A DNA stretch of 63,154 bases, counting the filler. It is 15 parts of 15 records of this genome, joined end to end, with 100 filler letters (N's around TTAATTAATTAA, not from the genome) between each part and the next. Parts side by side here need not be neighbours in the genome. Positions count along the whole stretch, not along the records: positions 43,905 to 47,942 come from SRR15195285_8055; 14 more parts are not named here. The stretch is one strand, 5' to 3'. This document shows, piece by piece, positions 1,197-48,140 of this stretch. A program made the position numbers and the translations under genes. The notes beneath the pieces are model-generated. The model searched no databases, had not been told where the DNA came from, and worked only from the letters and a program-made list of their open reading frames with translations. The first letter of the stretch is position 1. The number at the start of each line of letters is the position of its first letter.

Positions 1197-2664
1197 ATGA
1201 GCGCTGCGCCGGAGCCCGAGGTGGCGATGCCGGAAAACATGACGGGGCAGATCTTCACCTACGAGAATGTACGATATCGCAGCGCTAGGCGCGGTGCCAG
1301 AGGACCTGTCTCTCGGCTGCTGACTGACTGCCTGACTGGCTGCCCACGCCCCCGCAGTTTGTGGACGGGATTGCGGGCTCTTCGGGTGGGGTTGTTGCGA
1401 TCACGGTATTCTACCCGCTGAACAAGATTCGTGAGTGTAGCACGGGCCCAGCGGCTAAATATTCTCAGGTCGCGTGGACTTGCTATTCACCTCGGCCGCT
1501 GCCTATCTCACGGTGCTTGCAGGCATGGACTTGCAGGTGCAGGACCCAGGAAGGCCTTCGAAAGGTATTGCTCAGCTGGTCAAAGATATCGTGGCGGAAG
1601 ATGGTATCGGAGGTTTCTTCAAAGGCTGGTGGGCGCAGATCGTCGCGCTGGGCTCGTCGAACTTCGTCTACTTTTACGCGTCCTGCATGATTAAGGTTAT
1701 CATCATAACGAGGTATATCGAAATGCCATCACGCTGCACGCGCCTGACTGGTGTGGACGCTGACAAAATCCTCTGTCTGCACGCAGGCAAGGTGGGCGCC
1801 CGATGGGACCAGTGATGAACCTGGCAGTCGGTGCAGTCGCAGGAGTGATCAACGTGTTGCTGACTACCCCGCTGTGGGGAGTCATGACGGTGCTTACCAC
1901 CCAACGAACACGTGGTATCAAAGATGGCCAGGTGAGCACTGATTTGCTCTTGTGCTACGCCTCTGCCTGAGCCGTGCGTGCCAAGCATATGCGGCTCCAT
2001 TCTGCGCTGCGTCTGACCTGGCTACTGCTGTCCAGACACCTTACAACGGCATGCTAGACGGGTTGTACCGTTGTGGTAAAGAGGAAGGTGTCTCCGGCCT
2101 ATGGAAAGGCGTGACGACGAATCTAATCTTGGTCTCAAACCCAACAGTGCATTACTTCATCTACGACCGCTTGAAGCTTTGGGCAGCAGCCCTCGTTGAT
2201 GTACGGGGCAGGCCGCTCAACTCAGCGGAGTTCTTCTTGATGGGTGCAATTGCTAAGTGCGTTGCGACGGTCGTAACATATCCTGTCCAAGTCGCGCAAG
2301 CGCAGTTGCGCAACGATCGCAGGTGTGTCTGCCACTCCTTCACTGTGCTGTGAGGTAATGTGTGGCTCGTCGCGCTTCTACCCAGACAGCTCACAAGCTC
2401 ACAAGCGCTAGCGACTTGGTACCTAATCGGTGGCTGGGTCGCTGGATGCTTGCATTCAGGTCAAAGGATGGCAGTCGAAAGTACAAGGGCACGGTCCACT
2501 GCCTCTACGTCATCTACAGGACCGCTGGGGTCGCAGGTTGGTTCCGAGGGATGATTGCCAAGTTGTGGCAAACTGTGTTGACAGCTGCGTTTCAGCTGAT
2601 GACCTTCGAGTACATCCGGGGCGCTGTGATGAGCGCCGCCCTGCGGCTGCGTTCCCAGGCTTAA
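1197..2664 (+). CDS. Peroxisomal nucleotide/cofactor carrier, SLC25A17/PMP34-like (mitochondrial carrier family), 6 exons
   Basis: Exons 1197-1268, 1358-1430, 1523-1712, 1787-1931, 2036-2322 and 2460-2664 join in frame through GT-AG introns. Three carrier repeats (FYPLNKIR, TTPLWGV, TYPVQVAQAQL) and PMP34-type segments SNFVYFY, LILVSNPTVHYFIYDRLK, FLMGAIAKCVATVVTYP, KLWQTVLTAAF. Confidence 0.88.
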
Positions 2665-43522: not shown

Positions 43523-43964
43523 CTGCCCCGACCAATGCATCTCCTCGATCAATGTCATGAAAGAGAACAGCACAGATGGCAAAGTGGCAGCGTGGAGAGG
43601 GCAGCGCCCTCGTAGCACTGCAGAGAGCAGTGCTATCGAGAAGAACTGATATATCAGCGGTACAGAAAGGGCAGGCAGAGGGAAAGAGGGCAGGGTTAGG
43701 TAGAGAATGGGCAGCGCCCTTGTTCAGCGAACGGTGGCACAGCTGTGTAGCATGGGTAGCCAGAGGGAGAGAGTGGCCAGCCATCAAGTGCAGTGGTATA
43801 GAGANNNNNNNNNNNNNNNNNNNNNNNNNNNNNNNNNNNNNNNNNNNNTTAATTAATTAANNNNNNNNNNNNNNNNNNNNNNNNNNNNNNNNNNNNNNNN
43901 NNNNGGTCCGCCGACCCAGGAATCACATTGTGATTGCCTAGTAGCGGACACGCGCGCGTGTGAG

Positions 43965-44043
43965 GGCTGACGCAGGCTGACGCATCGCAGGGCTGCAGGA
44001 CACACAGCTGACGCAGGCTCACGCAGGGCTGACGCAGGCTGAG
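43965..44043. repeat. GCTGACGCAG minisatellite immediately upstream of SelO
   Basis: About five copies of GCT(G/C)ACGCA(G/T) within 80 bp. Confidence 0.75.
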
Positions 44044-44078
44044 TCCGAGTCGGAGGCGTGCGTGACGGAGCGACACTA

Positions 44079-45917
44079 ATGCTGGGCCATGGGGGCGCTG
44101 GGCGGCTGTGTAGGCTGACGCAGCACCTGCAGGGCTGTACCTGCATTCCCTATGCGACTGCAATTGACACGGCCGGGGCGTCGGGGATGCGCTTCGACAA
44201 CACGCTGCTACGCGAGCTGACGGTCGACGACCTAGACGGCGGGGAGAGCAACGTCGCGTACGTGCGGGTGCGCGGGCACGCAGTGCGTGTCACTCCTGCG
44301 CCAGTGCCCGCGCCGCACATGGTCGCATTCGAGGAGAGCGTGGCGAAGATGATCGGTCTCGACCCTGAATTCGGGGCTGCACACCCGGACGTACTCTCTG
44401 GCAACGTGCTGCTGGACGGCATGGATCCCTTCGCCACAGCTTACGGCGTGTCCGTGTATGGTACGTATGTGACTCCAGATGACGTCGCATATGGAGATGG
44501 GCGCGCGGCGTCCCTGTGTGAAGTGCTGAACAGCGCTGGCGACCGCTGGGAACTGCAGCTCAAAGGCAGTGGCCCGACGCCCTTCTGTCGCGGTGCTGAC
44601 GGGCGTGCGGTGTTGCGCTCGTCCGTGCGCGAGTTTCTTGTGAGCGAGGCAATGTACAACCTCGGCGTGCCGACCACGCGCGCGCTCTCCCTCATCGGCC
44701 ACGAGGAGGAGATCGAGCGCCCGTGGTATGATGCCACGTCCGAGAACCCGGAGGAAGGTACGTCGCCAGATCTCTCCGCGATGTCGCCAGAGGGCCACGC
44801 GCCATTTCGGATGAAGTTGGAGACCGGTGCCATTATGTGTCGCGTCGCACCCTCCTTCCTCCGTGTCGGTCACCTCGAGCTGTTCTTTCGCCGCGCGGCC
44901 GCTGGAGAGGGCATCACAGAGTTGACGCAGATCTGTGAGCACGTCCTGCGCCGTGAGTTTCAGCAGATATGGGAAGACGCGCACACACCGACGCTCGGGT
45001 CGAAACTTGCTGCGATGGTCGAGGAGTTTGCAACCCGTCAGGCGGAGCTGGTGGCGGAGTGGCTCCGCGTTGGCTACGTCCAGGGCAACATGAACTCAGA
45101 CAACTGCACGCTCGGTGGACGAACCATTGACTACGGCCCATTTGGTATTATGGAGCGGTACGATGGGATGTGGAACCCATTCACCTCCGACCCGGAAGGA
45201 AAATTTGCCTTTCTCCGTCAACCTGGCGCAGCGCGGATCAACTTGGCAACCCTCGCGAAAATTGTCCTGGCCATGCTAGGCCCCGAGGGGGAAAATACCG
45301 AGCTAAAGGCTCGGGTCACGGCAGCCGTAGAGGAACGTTTCTCAGCGGCGTTCTTCGCCGCTCACCACGAGCACAACCGCCGCAAGCTGGGTGTCATAGA
45401 GTGGGACGAGGGAGCTGAGGAGCTTTGGGACTCGCTGCAGGGCCTAATGCAGACAACAGGGGAGGGCGTTGACTTCACCCTCCTCTACCGCCAGCTGAGC
45501 AGCTTTGATTTGCAACAAGATGATGATACCGAGGCAGGAGCAGTGATCATGGCAGTGCTCGAGGACGGTGTACCAGGTGGGTGCTTCTACGCCCCGCTTC
45601 ATGAGGAGAGCCGTGCGCAATGGACGGCATGGTGCGAGAGCTATGCTGCTCGGCTGCGAGCCGATGCTCGGGACAATGCAGAACGCAGGGCAGAGCAGAG
45701 TGCAACCAGCCCCAAGTTTGTGCCTCGAAACTGGATGCTTGTGAGAGCGTACGAAGCTGCTTACGACGGCGACTACTCCATAATCGAGGAGCTGCAGCAG
45801 CTTTTGCGAGCGCCGTATGACGAGCAGACCTCGGAGCTCAGCAAGAAATACTACAGGAGGGCTCCAGCGTGGGCGCAAGAGATGCCTGGCGTTAAGTTCA
45901 TGAGCTGATCTTCGTAG
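44079..45917 (+). CDS. SELENOO: Protein adenylyltransferase SelO (YdiU/UPF0061), predicted selenoprotein with UGA 45906-45908 read as Sec
   Basis: YGDGRA, ELQLKGSGPTPFCRGADGRAVLRSSVREFLVSEAM, GYVQGNMNSDN, TIDYGPF, PKFVPRNW. The 3' end ATG AGC TGA TCT TCG TAG reads M-S-U-S-S-*, matching the SelO-family terminal (C/U)SS motif. Confidence 0.93.
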
Positions 45918-46045
45918 CACCTGTGGGTCTGCCCCAGCAGTTGGGGAGGCTCCAGCTGCTGCAGAATTAGAAAGACGAGACAAGTAGCAAGGGTAATCTA
46001 CGGCGCAAGAAAGACAGCCTTCAAATGTCTTTGCTGGTGCAACAA

Positions 46046-46148
46046 GCTGACCAATGACCGGATGCAGCATATGCGCGTTGCCTCGCCTGTCTGACTCATC
46101 AGCGGACGAGCGCAACCGTGCACATGCGGCGTGTGTGACAGTGTCAGT
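46046..46148 (+). promoter_or_regulatory. Candidate SECIS element (atypical, with elongated upper stem) in the SelO 3' UTR
   Basis: Lower stem GCTGAC/GTCAGT, 3x3 internal loop, core ATGAC (46054-46058) opposite TGAC (46136-46139), then a long mostly paired upper stem closed by a CTCA loop. Paired by hand. Confidence 0.6.
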
Positions 46149-46324
46149 GTGTGATGTGGATATTCGTATATCTAGGGGCAACGAGCACGTGTTATGATGT
46201 GTTTGTTTCTGCATTATTTTCTTCTGCATCTCCACCGCACGCAAGAGACAGCAAGTAGTGCGTGCAGCCAGCTGGTGGTTCTGGACAGCATGATTTTGCA
46301 GAGCGCTCACATGTCGAGAGGCCG

Positions 46325-47642
46325 TCACGATATTAAGCAAGGGCAATTGCGTCCGCTATGGCGCTGAGGCCTCAGCAGCGGCTCGTTAGCGCCGCCCGCT
46401 CCAGGAGCACCAAACCCCTCAGGCAACTGCGACAGCGTTCTCGTAGCCTCTAGGTACGCTTGATCGCTGCTCACCATTGGAGCAGTGTTCCTGGCACTAG
46501 CAGTCGCTGTTGCCGAATAGGTTCGACTACGCTGGCTGCCTGTTGGGCGGAGCAGTTCCTCCAGCTCGGCCGGCGCTTGGTCTGGGAAATTGGCAGGGAT
46601 TGAGGGCTTCGATGGCGGTTGTCGCACAGTCTTCTTGACTTCAGGTAGACTCCGGCAACGGTCTAGTAGCAATTGTCGTGCCGAATCCGTGGCATTGTGC
46701 TGCAAAAAGGTGTGCGTTCTACATCGAGCGGCGTCGTGTCGGTCAGCGGGGTTTTTTCGCAACATGAAAGCGGTGAACTCGCGCAGCTCTGCAGACCACT
46801 GGCCCGGCTGTTCGAATGTTGGCGGTGCATCGCGGACTATCGACATAAGCAAGGCGTCCATCTTTCTGCCCCTACCCGGTGGATGTAGCTCCGCCATTTC
46901 AATGATCGTAATTCCCAGCGACCACATGTCAGCTTTCCCATCATACCCGTCGTCCGTCGCTAACAAAAAGGGGACGAGGCGAGGCCAACCAGACCAACAC
47001 ACGCACATACACGCGCGCGTACATCATTGGTTCAGTTGAGCGTTGGTAGGCGTGGTCAACACACTCGAGGCACTGCGGCAGCCATGGTTGCGCACGATCA
47101 ATGACCTCCGGCGCCATCCAGTGCGGTGTTCCGATGGTGGTGTGGCGCCTCGTCACAGTGCTTATCTGGTCTGCCACCCCAAAGTCTGCAATCTTGACGA
47201 CCCCTTCGCTTGAAACGACCAAGTTCGCGGCCTTTACGTCGCGGTGGACACGGCGCAGGCCATGGACATACTCCAGCCCGGCCAACACGTCGCCGCAGCA
47301 CACCGCAATCTCCTGTTCGCTCAAACGCCCAGACTCCAGCAGCAGGTCACGCACGCTTCCGCCGCTGCAGTACTCGGAGACGAGCCAGAGCCGACCCCCG
47401 CCAATCTCGTGGTCACGGTCGACGAAATCCAGGAAGAACCGTATGACGTTCTGGTGTGCGCACTGCGAAAGCTGCTCGCACTCCAGCCGGAACTCCGCGA
47501 GGCTCTCCTCCTCGTACATCTCGTCGATCTCCATGACCTTGACGGCGCAGGGGAGACCGGACCAGCGGCACGCCCAGACGGATGCGGTGGCCCCGGTGCC
47601 GACGCAGGTGTCGAACACCAGCGACTTCGACGCCCTCGGCAT
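46325..47642 (-). CDS. STE20-family (MST/GCK-like) Ser/Thr kinase with C-terminal CaaX (intron 46960-47095)
   Basis: GTGATASV, AVK, LWLVSEYCSGGSV, HRDVKAAN, DFG, IGTPHWMAPEVI, ADMWSLGITIIEMAE..PP. The protein ends …RNCPCLIS*. Confidence 0.9.
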
Positions 47643-48140
47643 CCTGGGAAACCGCTCGCGACGGAAGCACCGATCCCTGGCGCCGCGCTGCTATATATAC
47701 GCGCCGCGCGCGGTCGCGTGTGCGCGACGCCGACGCGCGCGCGCGCCGGCGCGGGAGCGCGAGAGCACACATGCACCTTGATTATAACGCCTACGTGTAG
47801 CTAGGATCCTACAGTATGCATCCTGGCGGTCCCCCCCATGCAAATTTCGGAAATTACGGACTCGGCATTTTGCAAAACGCGCGCCCGCGGCGCGGGGCTG
47901 GGCGTGATTCTTGTGGAGCAGGGCGGGGCTGCTGATGAAGGCNNNNNNNNNNNNNNNNNNNNNNNNNNNNNNNNNNNNNNNNNNNNTTAATTAATTAANN
48001 NNNNNNNNNNNNNNNNNNNNNNNNNNNNNNNNNNNNNNNNNNATTCCCATTGCATTCAGCCTCGACACTGCGGGGGAGCCACAGCCGGGGCGGGTGGGGA
48101 ATTCTTCGATGGGCTGATCGGCAAGCTGATCGGCAGCCGC

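What the first reader, a model, noticed from the sequence alone, without database searches (positions are those of the whole stretch)
44079..44140. PTS2 peroxisomal import signal on SelO
Seen: the first in-frame ATG (44079) gives MLGHGGAG-RLCRLTQHL-QGC, an exact match to the PTS2 consensus R-L-x5-H-L, followed by Cys as in cleaved PTS2 presequences. Established: characterised eukaryotic SelO proteins are mitochondrial or plastid. The same assembly encodes a PMP34-like carrier (1197-2664), so peroxisomes are probably present. Inference: a peroxisome-targeted, Sec-dependent AMPylase, i.e. a possible peroxisomal redox-AMPylation system. Use of the downstream ATG (44187) could give dual localisation.
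Basis: partly seen in the sequence, partly recalled or inferred. Interest (0 to 1): 0.7.

Follow-up and report, generated by a model that had tools for sequence, protein, structure and literature searches.

The report
Conserved PTS2-like signal on SelO
A marine protist's gene for the stress-response enzyme SelO starts with a short peptide that fits the N-terminal address label for peroxisomes. Its closest relatives keep the peptide, so the enzyme, which is mitochondrial in humans and yeast, may work in peroxisomes here, but import has not been tested.

Summary
ATG 44079 opens an intronless SelO gene (Pfam SelO, E 1.3e-74) whose residues 9-17, RLCRLTQHL, fit the PTS2 consensus [RK]-[LVI]-x5-[HQ]-[LAF], with Leu at position 5.

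The motif is conserved. Five of the six close orthologues that have an N-terminus carry RLRRLTQHL, RLRKLAQHL, RLRRLAGHL or RLDRLARQL. The rest of the 20-40-residue extension varies and has in-frame indels. The sixth orthologue (RLHRLVHL) is one residue short. Only 2 of 108 more distant SelO homologues have such a motif in their first 80 residues.

A metatranscriptome contig spans ATG 44079, and no ATG lies upstream on the contig. AlphaFold2 models the extension as a low-confidence helix outside the fold. The Sec reading holds: TGA-Ser-Ser-stop is conserved with synonymous changes. The SECIS element is unresolved. A carrier on another contig is closest to SLC25A17/PMP34.

Several points are not shown. 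The downstream Cys is not conserved. PEX7 could not be searched because no genome is held. The motif is also an Arg/Leu amphipathic helix, so a mitochondrial presequence is not excluded.

Verdict: probable PTS2, about 0.55. This would be a new variant of a known kind. I found no paper describing a PTS2-bearing SelO.

The parts
43945..44078 (+). 5' leader. It has no ATG and holds the GCTGACGCAG-type repeats (43966-44037).
   Evidence: No ATG in 43906-44078. All 4 exact GCTGACGCAG copies in the window lie in 43966-44123. A 388-nt contig from metatranscriptome X1 lies on 43945-43980 and 44046-44391. It skips 65 nt of the repeats and has 6 other letters in their place.
44079..45917 (+). SelO coding sequence with no intron: 609 codons, then TGA (Sec), Ser, Ser, TAG.
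   Evidence: Pfam PF02696 E 1.3e-74. PDB 6eac SelO E 1.3e-59. AlphaFold2 mean pLDDT 90.9.
44079..44186 (+). N-terminal extension of 36 residues, outside the conserved SelO fold.
   Evidence: pLDDT is 45, 49 and 43 for the three 10-residue blocks of residues 1-30, with a helix modelled at residues 6-18. Among orthologues it varies in length and sequence except at the motif.
44103..44129 (+). PTS2-like nonapeptide RLCRLTQHL (residues 9-17).
   Evidence: Fits [RK]-[LVI]-x5-[HQ]-[LAF] with a hydrophobic position 5 (consensus from PMC7710942 passages). R1, L2, L5 and L9 are invariant; R4 and H8 are kept in 5 of 6 orthologues.
44187..44189 (+). Second in-frame ATG, at the start of the conserved domain (MRFDNTLL).
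   Evidence: Met in 5 of 6 orthologues and Leu in P0005. Its context is TCGGGGATGC, against ACACTAATGC at the first ATG.
45906..45908 (+). In-frame TGA read as selenocysteine, third codon from the end.
   Evidence: Window, L002 and L003 all read GVKFMS-TGA-Ser-Ser-stop, with synonymous Ser codons. Homologues P0006 and P0076 end FSCSS.
46046..46148 (+). Candidate SECIS-like hairpin in the 3' UTR, unconfirmed. AUGA is at 46054-46057 and GA at 46137-46138.
   Evidence: RNAfold gives a long hairpin, and the core AAUGACCG is shared with the 3' UTR of L003. Rfam finds no SECIS in either. An oligo-dT RNA contig covers 45890-46154.
2030..2317 (+). Context on another contig of the same assembly: the largest exon of a mitochondrial-carrier-family gene of the SLC25A17/PMP34 type.
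   Evidence: The nearest named relatives are 'solute carrier family 25 (peroxisomal adenine nucleotide transporter), member 17' at 63% identity and 'adenine nucleotide transporter 17' at 68%. The Atlas says only Mito_carr.

Best explanation
The gene encodes a selenocysteine-containing SelO AMPylase. Translation starts at ATG 44079, so the protein carries a flexible 36-residue N-terminal appendage. Residues 9-17 (RLCRLTQHL) form a short amphipathic helix that acts as a type-2 peroxisomal targeting signal. It would be bound in the cytosol by the PEX7 receptor and carried with its co-receptor into the peroxisomal matrix, where SelO would AMPylate matrix proteins in an H2O2-rich compartment.

Shown here: the gene identity, the motif, its conservation, an RNA-library contig across the start codon, and that the extension lies outside the fold.

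Inferred: PEX7 binding, import, and any peroxisomal substrates.
For: 1. Exact fit to the canonical PTS2, with Leu at position 5, within the first 40 residues (consensus from PMC7710942 and PMC6203080 passages).
2. Conservation pattern. In the extension of 6 orthologues, beyond the initiator Met only R1, L2, L5 and L9 are invariant. R4 is K once and H8 is Q once, and Q is the allowed PTS2 alternative. Everything else varies and the indels are in frame. 5 of 6 fit R-L-x5-[HQ]-L. P0002 and P0121 are near-duplicates, so this is about 4 of 5 independent lineages.
3. Family background is low: 2 of 108 other SelO homologues. R[LI]x5[HQ]L occurs 6 times in 73,147 positions of 124 proteins, and 5 of those are these N-termini.
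4. P0005 has Leu where the window has the second Met, so at least that orthologue must start upstream.
5. ATG 44079 is the first ATG on the contig and lies inside a metatranscriptome contig with 1 other letter over 346 nt.
6. AlphaFold2 gives residues 1-30 low confidence (block means 43-49), with a helix over residues 6-18. The confident fold starts at about residue 40.
7. A C-terminal PTS1 is not available to this protein, because the C-terminus is the conserved Sec-Ser-Ser.
8. An SLC25A17/PMP34-type carrier in the same assembly suggests that peroxisomes exist.
Against: - PEX7 and the rest of the import machinery could not be searched, because no genome is held. There are no PEX families among 40 window ORFs.
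- The PTS2 pathway has been lost in several lineages, including cyanidiophyte red algae. Earlier notes in this scan place this organism near red algae, as probable Picozoa; I did not test that.
- P0003 has RLHRLVHL, with only four residues between R-L and H-L. That would not fit PEX7 but would still be an amphipathic basic helix.
- R-L-x-R-L-x-x-H-L puts Leu on one face and Arg/His on another. This is also what a TOM20-binding mitochondrial presequence looks like, and characterised eukaryotic SelO (human, yeast) is mitochondrial (PMC12409994 passages; PMC13459536 abstract).
- Thr at position 6 lies outside the narrower Petriv-type set (recalled, not checked here).
- The Cys after the motif is not conserved.
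- The codons for R-L-T-Q are a copy of a local DNA repeat.
- The RNA-library contig cannot be proven to be RNA: there is no intron to show splicing, and the tool warns that DNA can be present.
Confidence: 0.55

Rival explanations
1. The extension is a short mitochondrial presequence, as in human SELENOO and yeast Fmp40. Its conserved Arg/Leu amphipathic helix merely coincides with the PTS2 pattern, and the protein is imported into mitochondria.
For: - Characterised eukaryotic SelO is mitochondrial (PMC12409994 passages; PMC13459536 abstract in listing).
- Many distant homologues have Arg/Ser/Ala-rich N-termini with no acidic residues.
- The clade extensions are basic: 7 Arg in the first 39 residues of P0002.
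- P0003 tolerates a one-residue deletion inside the motif and remains amphipathic.
- The helix is predicted but not docked, as expected for any targeting peptide.
Against: - Presequences rarely hold fixed positions, yet here exactly the PTS2-defining positions are invariant while the flanks change.
- P0005 has Asp inside the helix (RLDRLARQL) and Q at position 8, the PTS2 alternative.
- The P0004 extension is only about 20 residues and ends in acidic residues.
- Only 2 of 108 other SelO N-termini, many of them presequence-like, show the pattern.
Confidence: 0.28
2. Both compartments are served, in one of two ways. The N-terminal helix could be ambiguous, giving peroxisome plus mitochondrion. 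Or leaky scanning from ATG 44079 to ATG 44187 could yield a PTS2 form plus an untargeted cytosolic form.
For: - The first ATG has pyrimidine at -3 (ACACTAATGC) and the second has G at -3 (TCGGGGATGC). The Kozak rule is general knowledge and untested in this lineage.
- Met at the second site is kept in 5 of 6 orthologues, within a conserved SG-M.
- The second start coincides with the first residue of the conserved domain.
Against: - P0005 has Leu at the second site.
- There are no data on translation starts.
- The conserved Met may be structural.
- Contigs cannot show transcript ends.
Confidence: 0.12
3. The extension is not translated. 44079-44186 is 5' UTR made of local repeats, translation starts at 44187, and the protein is cytosolic.
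For: - The R-L-T-Q codons (AGGCTGACGCAG) are one of only four exact GCTGACGCAG copies in the 63-kb window, all within 43966-44123.
- The repeat block is length-polymorphic.
- Gene callers always take the longest ORF.
- Several distant SelO homologues have no extension at all.
Against: - The frame stays open with an upstream ATG in all 6 orthologues despite indels.
- Conservation is at the amino-acid level and position-specific.
- P0005 lacks the downstream Met.
- 44079 is the first ATG that a scanning ribosome would meet.
Confidence: 0.05

Closest known systems
Human SELENOO and yeast Fmp40 (eukaryotic SelO AMPylases)
   Same: Same family and fold, with the catalytic-type K/N/D conserved. Like the human protein, it has a C-terminal Sec three residues from the end and an N-terminal targeting appendage in front of the kinase-like domain (PMC12409994 passages).
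   Different: Those proteins carry mitochondrial targeting peptides. Here the appendage is short, and its only conserved element fits the PTS2 nonapeptide.
Bacterial SelO/YdiU (PDB 6eac, 6k20, 6iii)
   Same: E 1.3e-59 to 1.7e-54 over the whole domain.
   Different: The bacterial proteins start at the domain, with no extension and no Sec. The window protein also has an insert at about residues 220-243, where pLDDT is lower.
Canonical PTS2 cargo, such as peroxisomal 3-ketoacyl-CoA thiolase (NgPKT and its stramenopile orthologues in PMC7710942)
   Same: An N-terminal nonapeptide [RK]-[LVI]-x5-[HQ]-[LAF] within the first 40 residues, hydrophobic at position 5, and conserved in orthologues while the flanks vary. 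PMC7710942 uses the same criterion to accept predicted PTS2 proteins.
   Different: The cargo is an AMPylase and selenoprotein, not a beta-oxidation enzyme. Import is untested, the receptor has not been shown in this organism, and the downstream Cys known from plant and mammalian cleaved presequences is not conserved.
Arabidopsis SELO
   Same: A eukaryotic SelO sent to an organelle by an N-terminal signal.
   Different: A plastid transit peptide. Picozoa are described as plastid-lacking (title and abstract of 10.1101/2021.04.14.439778 in the listing).

Membership tests
SelO / YdiU protein adenylyltransferase (Pfam PF02696) | Significant match to the family profile over the whole domain | tested here: met
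   E 1.3e-74, 252 bits against a cut-off of 22.8. PDB SelO chains E 1.3e-59 and weaker.
SelO / YdiU protein adenylyltransferase (Pfam PF02696) | Active-site Lys, Asn and metal-binding Asp of the flipped-ATP kinase-like site (residue roles recalled from the P. syringae SelO work) | tested here: met
   K162, N342 and D351 align with K, N and D of 6eac at chain positions 114, 254 and 263. K162 and D351 are invariant and N342 nearly invariant in 65 homologues.
SelO / YdiU protein adenylyltransferase (Pfam PF02696) | AMPylation activity | not testable with these tools
   Needs an enzyme assay.
Selenoprotein form of SelO | In-frame TGA near the C-terminus, aligned with Cys in homologues, with conserved codons after it | tested here: met
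   TGA-Ser-Ser-stop in 3 of 3 DNA sequences, with synonymous Ser codons. P0006 and P0076 end FSCSS.
Selenoprotein form of SelO | SECIS element in the 3' UTR | tested here: inconclusive
   No Rfam hit in the window 3' UTR or in L003, and my strict pattern scan found none. A long hairpin at 46046-46148 has AUGA/GA and shares AAUGACCG with L003, but it lacks a canonical AA loop.
PTS2-targeted peroxisomal matrix proteins | Nonapeptide [RK]-[LVI]-x5-[HQ]-[LAF] with a hydrophobic residue at position 5 | tested here: met
   RLCRLTQHL. Consensus from PMC7710942 passages.
PTS2-targeted peroxisomal matrix proteins | Motif lies within about the first 40 residues of the translated protein | tested here: met
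   Residues 9-17 counted from the first ATG. There is no upstream ATG, an in-frame stop lies at 44040, and an RNA-library contig spans the ATG. The translation start itself was not measured.
PTS2-targeted peroxisomal matrix proteins | Motif conserved in orthologues | tested here: met
   5 of 6 orthologue N-termini fit. P0003 is one residue short.
PTS2-targeted peroxisomal matrix proteins | PEX7 receptor, and a co-receptor with a PEX7-binding site, present in the organism | not testable with these tools
No genome is held. No PEX family among 40 window ORFs.
PTS2-targeted peroxisomal matrix proteins | PEX7-dependent import into peroxisomes | not testable with these tools
   Needs a localisation experiment.
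PTS2-targeted peroxisomal matrix proteins | Cys-containing processing site downstream of the motif (plant and mammalian type only, so not universal) | tested here: not met
   Cys follows the motif in 2 of 6 orthologues (P0001, P0005) and not at an aligned position.
Mitochondrial presequence-bearing SelO | Basic amphipathic N-terminal helix free of acidic residues, with an MPP cleavage motif | tested here: inconclusive
   The helix is basic and amphipathic, but P0005 has Asp inside it. I saw no clear R-2/R-3 site by eye. TargetP and MitoFates are not available here.

The most novel reading that the evidence does not exclude
A lineage of uncultured marine protists (probably Picozoa) has moved its only recognisable SelO from the mitochondrion to the peroxisome by means of a PTS2. 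This would be the first peroxisomal AMPylase and a selenoprotein of the peroxisomal matrix. It would imply that AMPylation-based redox control operates in peroxisomes, and that the PEX7 pathway survives in this relative of red algae although cyanidiophyte red algae lost it.
Probability: 0.45. Interest if true: 0.65.

Novelty: new variant of a known kind. Interest (0 to 1): 0.5.

Why it matters
SelO is one of the most conserved kinase-like enzymes, and in the eukaryotes studied so far it is treated as a mitochondrial (or plastid) stress enzyme. A conserved PTS2 on SelO would place protein AMPylation and a selenoprotein in the peroxisome, an H2O2-producing organelle with few known post-translational regulators.

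It would also give a simple test case: fuse the first 40 residues to GFP and compare wild-type with pex7 cells. It would mark the PTS2 pathway as retained in a lineage whose red-algal relatives have lost it.

If the signal turns out to be mitochondrial, the case is a useful warning that conserved PTS2 look-alikes occur in presequences.

Tried and rejected
PEX7, a SelO paralogue and canonical PTS2 cargo stay untested.
- I had no PEX7 sequence from any tool, so no PEX7 search or PEX7-peptide complex prediction was attempted.
- Idea that the motif is only a non-coding repeat. This was raised (all 4 exact GCTGACGCAG copies lie in 43966-44123). I rejected it as the main reading after seeing the position-specific amino-acid conservation and in-frame indels, and keep it as a 0.05 rival.
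- Rfam for SECIS: nothing in window 45850-46450 or in L002/L003. Rfam on 43905-44400 gave only two miRNA-like chance hits at E 5-8.
- My strict SECIS pattern scan printed nothing.
The single-protein scan of metagenome contigs gave 3 loci, none reaching the N-terminus. I therefore have no orthologous DNA for a dN/dS test of the extension.
- ESM Atlas on the carrier exon returned only 'mitochondrial carrier'.
- Earlier findings: nothing on peroxins in this genome, on SelO, or near this place. The one PEX7 hit is an unrelated phage note.
- Read laying: X2, X3 and X4 gave no cover over 43990-44577, which says nothing either way. Contigs cannot show transcript ends.
- PTS1-like C-termini: 0 of 89 window ORFs. 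This is uninformative, since most of those ORFs are not genes.
- Literature: 0 papers with 'selenoprotein O' + PTS2. PTS2 + AMPylation and SelO + 'peroxisomal targeting signal' gave 1 paper each, both unrelated by title. SELENOO + peroxisom* gave 52 papers, of which I saw only the 12 listed titles, none about targeting. Picozoa + peroxisome gave 7 papers, none on picozoan peroxins by title.

Full report
**What is there**

The window is a chain of 15 short contigs (3-6.4 kb, GC 0.53-0.615) joined by N runs and TTAATTAATTAA linkers. The finding lies on the contig 43905-47942.

An intronless ORF runs from an in-frame TGA at 44040 to TGA 45906. Its first ATG is at 44079. The product matches Pfam SelO (PF02696) at E 1.3e-74 and the solved bacterial SelO/YdiU structures at E 1.3e-59 to 1.9e-54. 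K162, N342 and D351 align with the Lys, Asn and Asp of the P. syringae active site; the roles of those residues are recalled, not checked here. K162 and D351 are invariant and N342 nearly invariant in 65 homologues. AlphaFold2 on that alignment gives mean pLDDT 90.9 and pTM 0.90.

**The selenocysteine**

The ORF ends GVKFMS-TGA-TCT-TCG-TAG. Two metagenome relatives read the same peptide, with TGA-TCC-TCC-TAA (L002) and TGA-TCA-TCG-TAA (L003). The two codons after the TGA are thus conserved through synonymous changes. Two homologues end FSCSS, with Cys at the TGA position. This supports Sec.

The SECIS element is not settled. Rfam finds none in the window 3' UTR or in L003, and my strict pattern scan found none. 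A long hairpin at 46046-46148 has AUGA on the 5' side and GA on the 3' side, and it shares AAUGACCG with a hairpin in L003. Neither hairpin has a textbook apical AA loop. An oligo-dT RNA contig covers 45890-46154.

**The observation**

Residues 9-17 are RLCRLTQHL (nt 44103-44129), an exact R-L-x5-H-L. The motif fits the canonical PTS2, [RK]-[LVI]-x5-[HQ]-[LAF], which lies within the first 40 residues and has a hydrophobic residue at position 5 (passages of PMC7710942 and PMC6203080).

How much is this beyond chance?
- In the window's own six-frame translation the strict pattern occurs 5 times in 126,304 positions and the canonical one 41 times. That is roughly 0.2% and 1.3% for 40 start positions.
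- 3 of 89 ATG-ORFs of at least 100 aa have the canonical motif in the first 40 residues, SelO included.

A single match is therefore only mildly unusual.

**Conservation**

The protein search gave five close relatives among the 120 listed: the window's own protein plus P0002 (87%), P0003 (78%), P0004 (83%) and P0005 (74%). The next hit is at 46%. A search for short fragments added P0121 (80%) and P0122, which has no N-terminus.

The six N-termini align as follows:

| Protein | Motif |
|---|---|
| P0001 | RLCRLTQHL |
| P0002 | RLRRLTQHL |
| P0121 | RLRKLAQHL |
| P0004 | RLRRLAGHL |
| P0005 | RLDRLARQL |
| P0003 | RLHRLVHL |

- Within the extension, beyond the initiator Met only R1, L2, L5 and L9 are invariant.
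- R4 is Lys once and H8 is Gln once. Gln is the PTS2 alternative at that position.
- The remaining 10-30 residues differ and carry in-frame indels, until a conserved SG-M just before the domain.
- Five of six therefore fit the PTS2. P0002 and P0121 are near-duplicates.
- P0003 lacks one residue between L5 and H8 and does not fit.
- P0005 has Leu where the window has its second Met, so that orthologue cannot start there.

Of 117 more distant SelO homologues I dropped 9 that do not start with Met. 2 of the remaining 108 have even the relaxed motif in their first 80 residues. These are P0024 (RLKRINKHF at residue 8) and P0050, where the motif lies inside the domain.

**Is the extension expressed and translated?**

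There is no ATG in 43906-44078, so a scanning ribosome would meet 44079 first. Its context (ACACTAATGC) has a pyrimidine at -3, and the second ATG (TCGGGGATGC) has G at -3. Leaky scanning is conceivable under the general Kozak rule, which is untested in this lineage.

Sixteen runs hold part of the gene, and 15 of them are on record as RNA. I laid four. One 388-nt contig of metatranscriptome X1 lies on 43945-43980 and 44046-44391 with one other letter, so it spans the ATG and the motif. It skips 65 nt of the upstream repeats, has six other letters in their place, and the skipped ends are CG..TC. That looks like a repeat-length variant, not an intron. The tool warns that DNA can be present in RNA libraries, and with no intron I cannot prove the contig came from RNA.

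AlphaFold2 gives residues 1-30 low confidence (block means 43-49), with a helix over residues 6-18. The confident fold begins at about residue 40. The bacterial structures start at the domain. The extension is therefore an appendage, as a targeting signal should be.

**A complication**

The codons for R-L-T-Q (AGGCTGACGCAG) are a copy of a local repeat. All four exact GCTGACGCAG copies in the 63-kb window lie in 43966-44123. With one mismatch allowed there are 26 matches in the window against 10.8 expected, six of them in this stretch. This first made me suspect non-coding sequence. The position-specific amino-acid conservation argues against that, so I keep it as a minor rival.

**Peroxisomes and the receptor**

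The carrier at 1197-2664 lies on another contig of the assembly and is split into exons. Its largest exon is 63-68% identical to proteins that a source names 'solute carrier family 25 (peroxisomal adenine nucleotide transporter), member 17' and 'adenine nucleotide transporter 17'. Unnamed relatives at 82-89% come from the same kinds of source as the SelO relatives. That makes peroxisomes likely.

PEX7 could not be tested. No genome is held, 40 window ORFs show no peroxin family, and earlier notes on this genome mention none. This matters because PEX7 and the PTS2 pathway have been lost in C. elegans, diatoms, haptophytes and the red algae C. merolae and G. sulphuraria (passages of PMC7710942, PMC8172628, PMC6203080). 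Earlier notes of this scan call the genome a marine protist, probably Picozoa (not tested by me). Picozoa are described as close relatives of red algae (title and abstract of 10.1101/2021.04.14.439778, listing).

**Weighing**

The pattern of conservation is the one used in the literature to accept predicted PTS2 proteins: the nonapeptide is kept, position 5 is hydrophobic and the flanks are free (PMC7710942 passages). A C-terminal PTS1 is closed to this protein, because the C-terminus is the conserved Sec-Ser-Ser.

However, R-L-x-R-L-x-x-H-L is also a basic amphipathic helix of the type mitochondrial presequences use. Human SelO has a mitochondrial targeting peptide (PMC12409994 passages) and yeast Fmp40 is mitochondrial (PMC13459536 abstract). 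One orthologue breaks the PTS2 spacing while staying amphipathic.

My odds:
- A working PTS2: 0.55
- A mitochondrial presequence: 0.28
- Dual destination: 0.12
- Extension untranslated: 0.05

**Novelty**

I found no paper that links SelO with a PTS2 or with peroxisomal import (listings only for the last three).

If real, this is a known enzyme with a known kind of signal in a new combination. That makes it a new variant of a known kind, of moderate interest, and directly testable with an N-terminal GFP fusion in wild-type and pex7 cells.

Noticed in passing
window 43906-43942: The first ~35 nt of the SelO contig are matched by many high-depth contigs in two metatranscriptomes (summed depth 59 and 51). 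These contigs all diverge into different sequences after 43937-43942, and the SelO RNA contig begins only at 43945. This could be a dispersed repeat, a conserved fragment of an abundant RNA, or a chimeric contig end. Rfam gives nothing and there is no second copy in the window.
   Followed up: partly
window 43966-44123: A cluster of GCTGACGCAG(G) repeats. All 4 exact copies in the window are here, plus 2 one-mismatch copies. One copy forms the codons for R-L-T-Q of the PTS2-like motif. An RNA-library contig carries a 65-nt shorter version of the upstream block, so the block is length-polymorphic. Its function, if any, is unknown.
   Followed up: partly
whole window; linkers at e.g. 43805-43904: The window is not one stretch of chromosome. 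It is 15 contigs of 3.0-6.4 kb joined by 44 N + TTAATTAATTAA + 44 N, so neighbouring 'genes' across linkers are not linked.
   Followed up: yes
protein P0024 (41% identical SelO homologue, one Logan contig): This is the only distant SelO homologue with a PTS2-like nonapeptide near its N-terminus (RLKRINKHF at residue 8). A hydrophobic stretch follows the motif. It may be a second, independent case or it may be chance.
   Followed up: no
L003 about 1290-1370: The 63%-identical metagenome relative has a GT..AG intron that splits the Trp codon of ...PAW|AQEMPGVKFMS. The window's gene is uninterrupted at that point.
   Followed up: partly
window 46328-47690 (-): A convergent neighbour: a protein kinase gene (Pkinase, E 1e-37) in two ORF pieces with an apparent intron near 46941-47023. 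Its 3' end faces the SelO 3' UTR.
   Followed up: no
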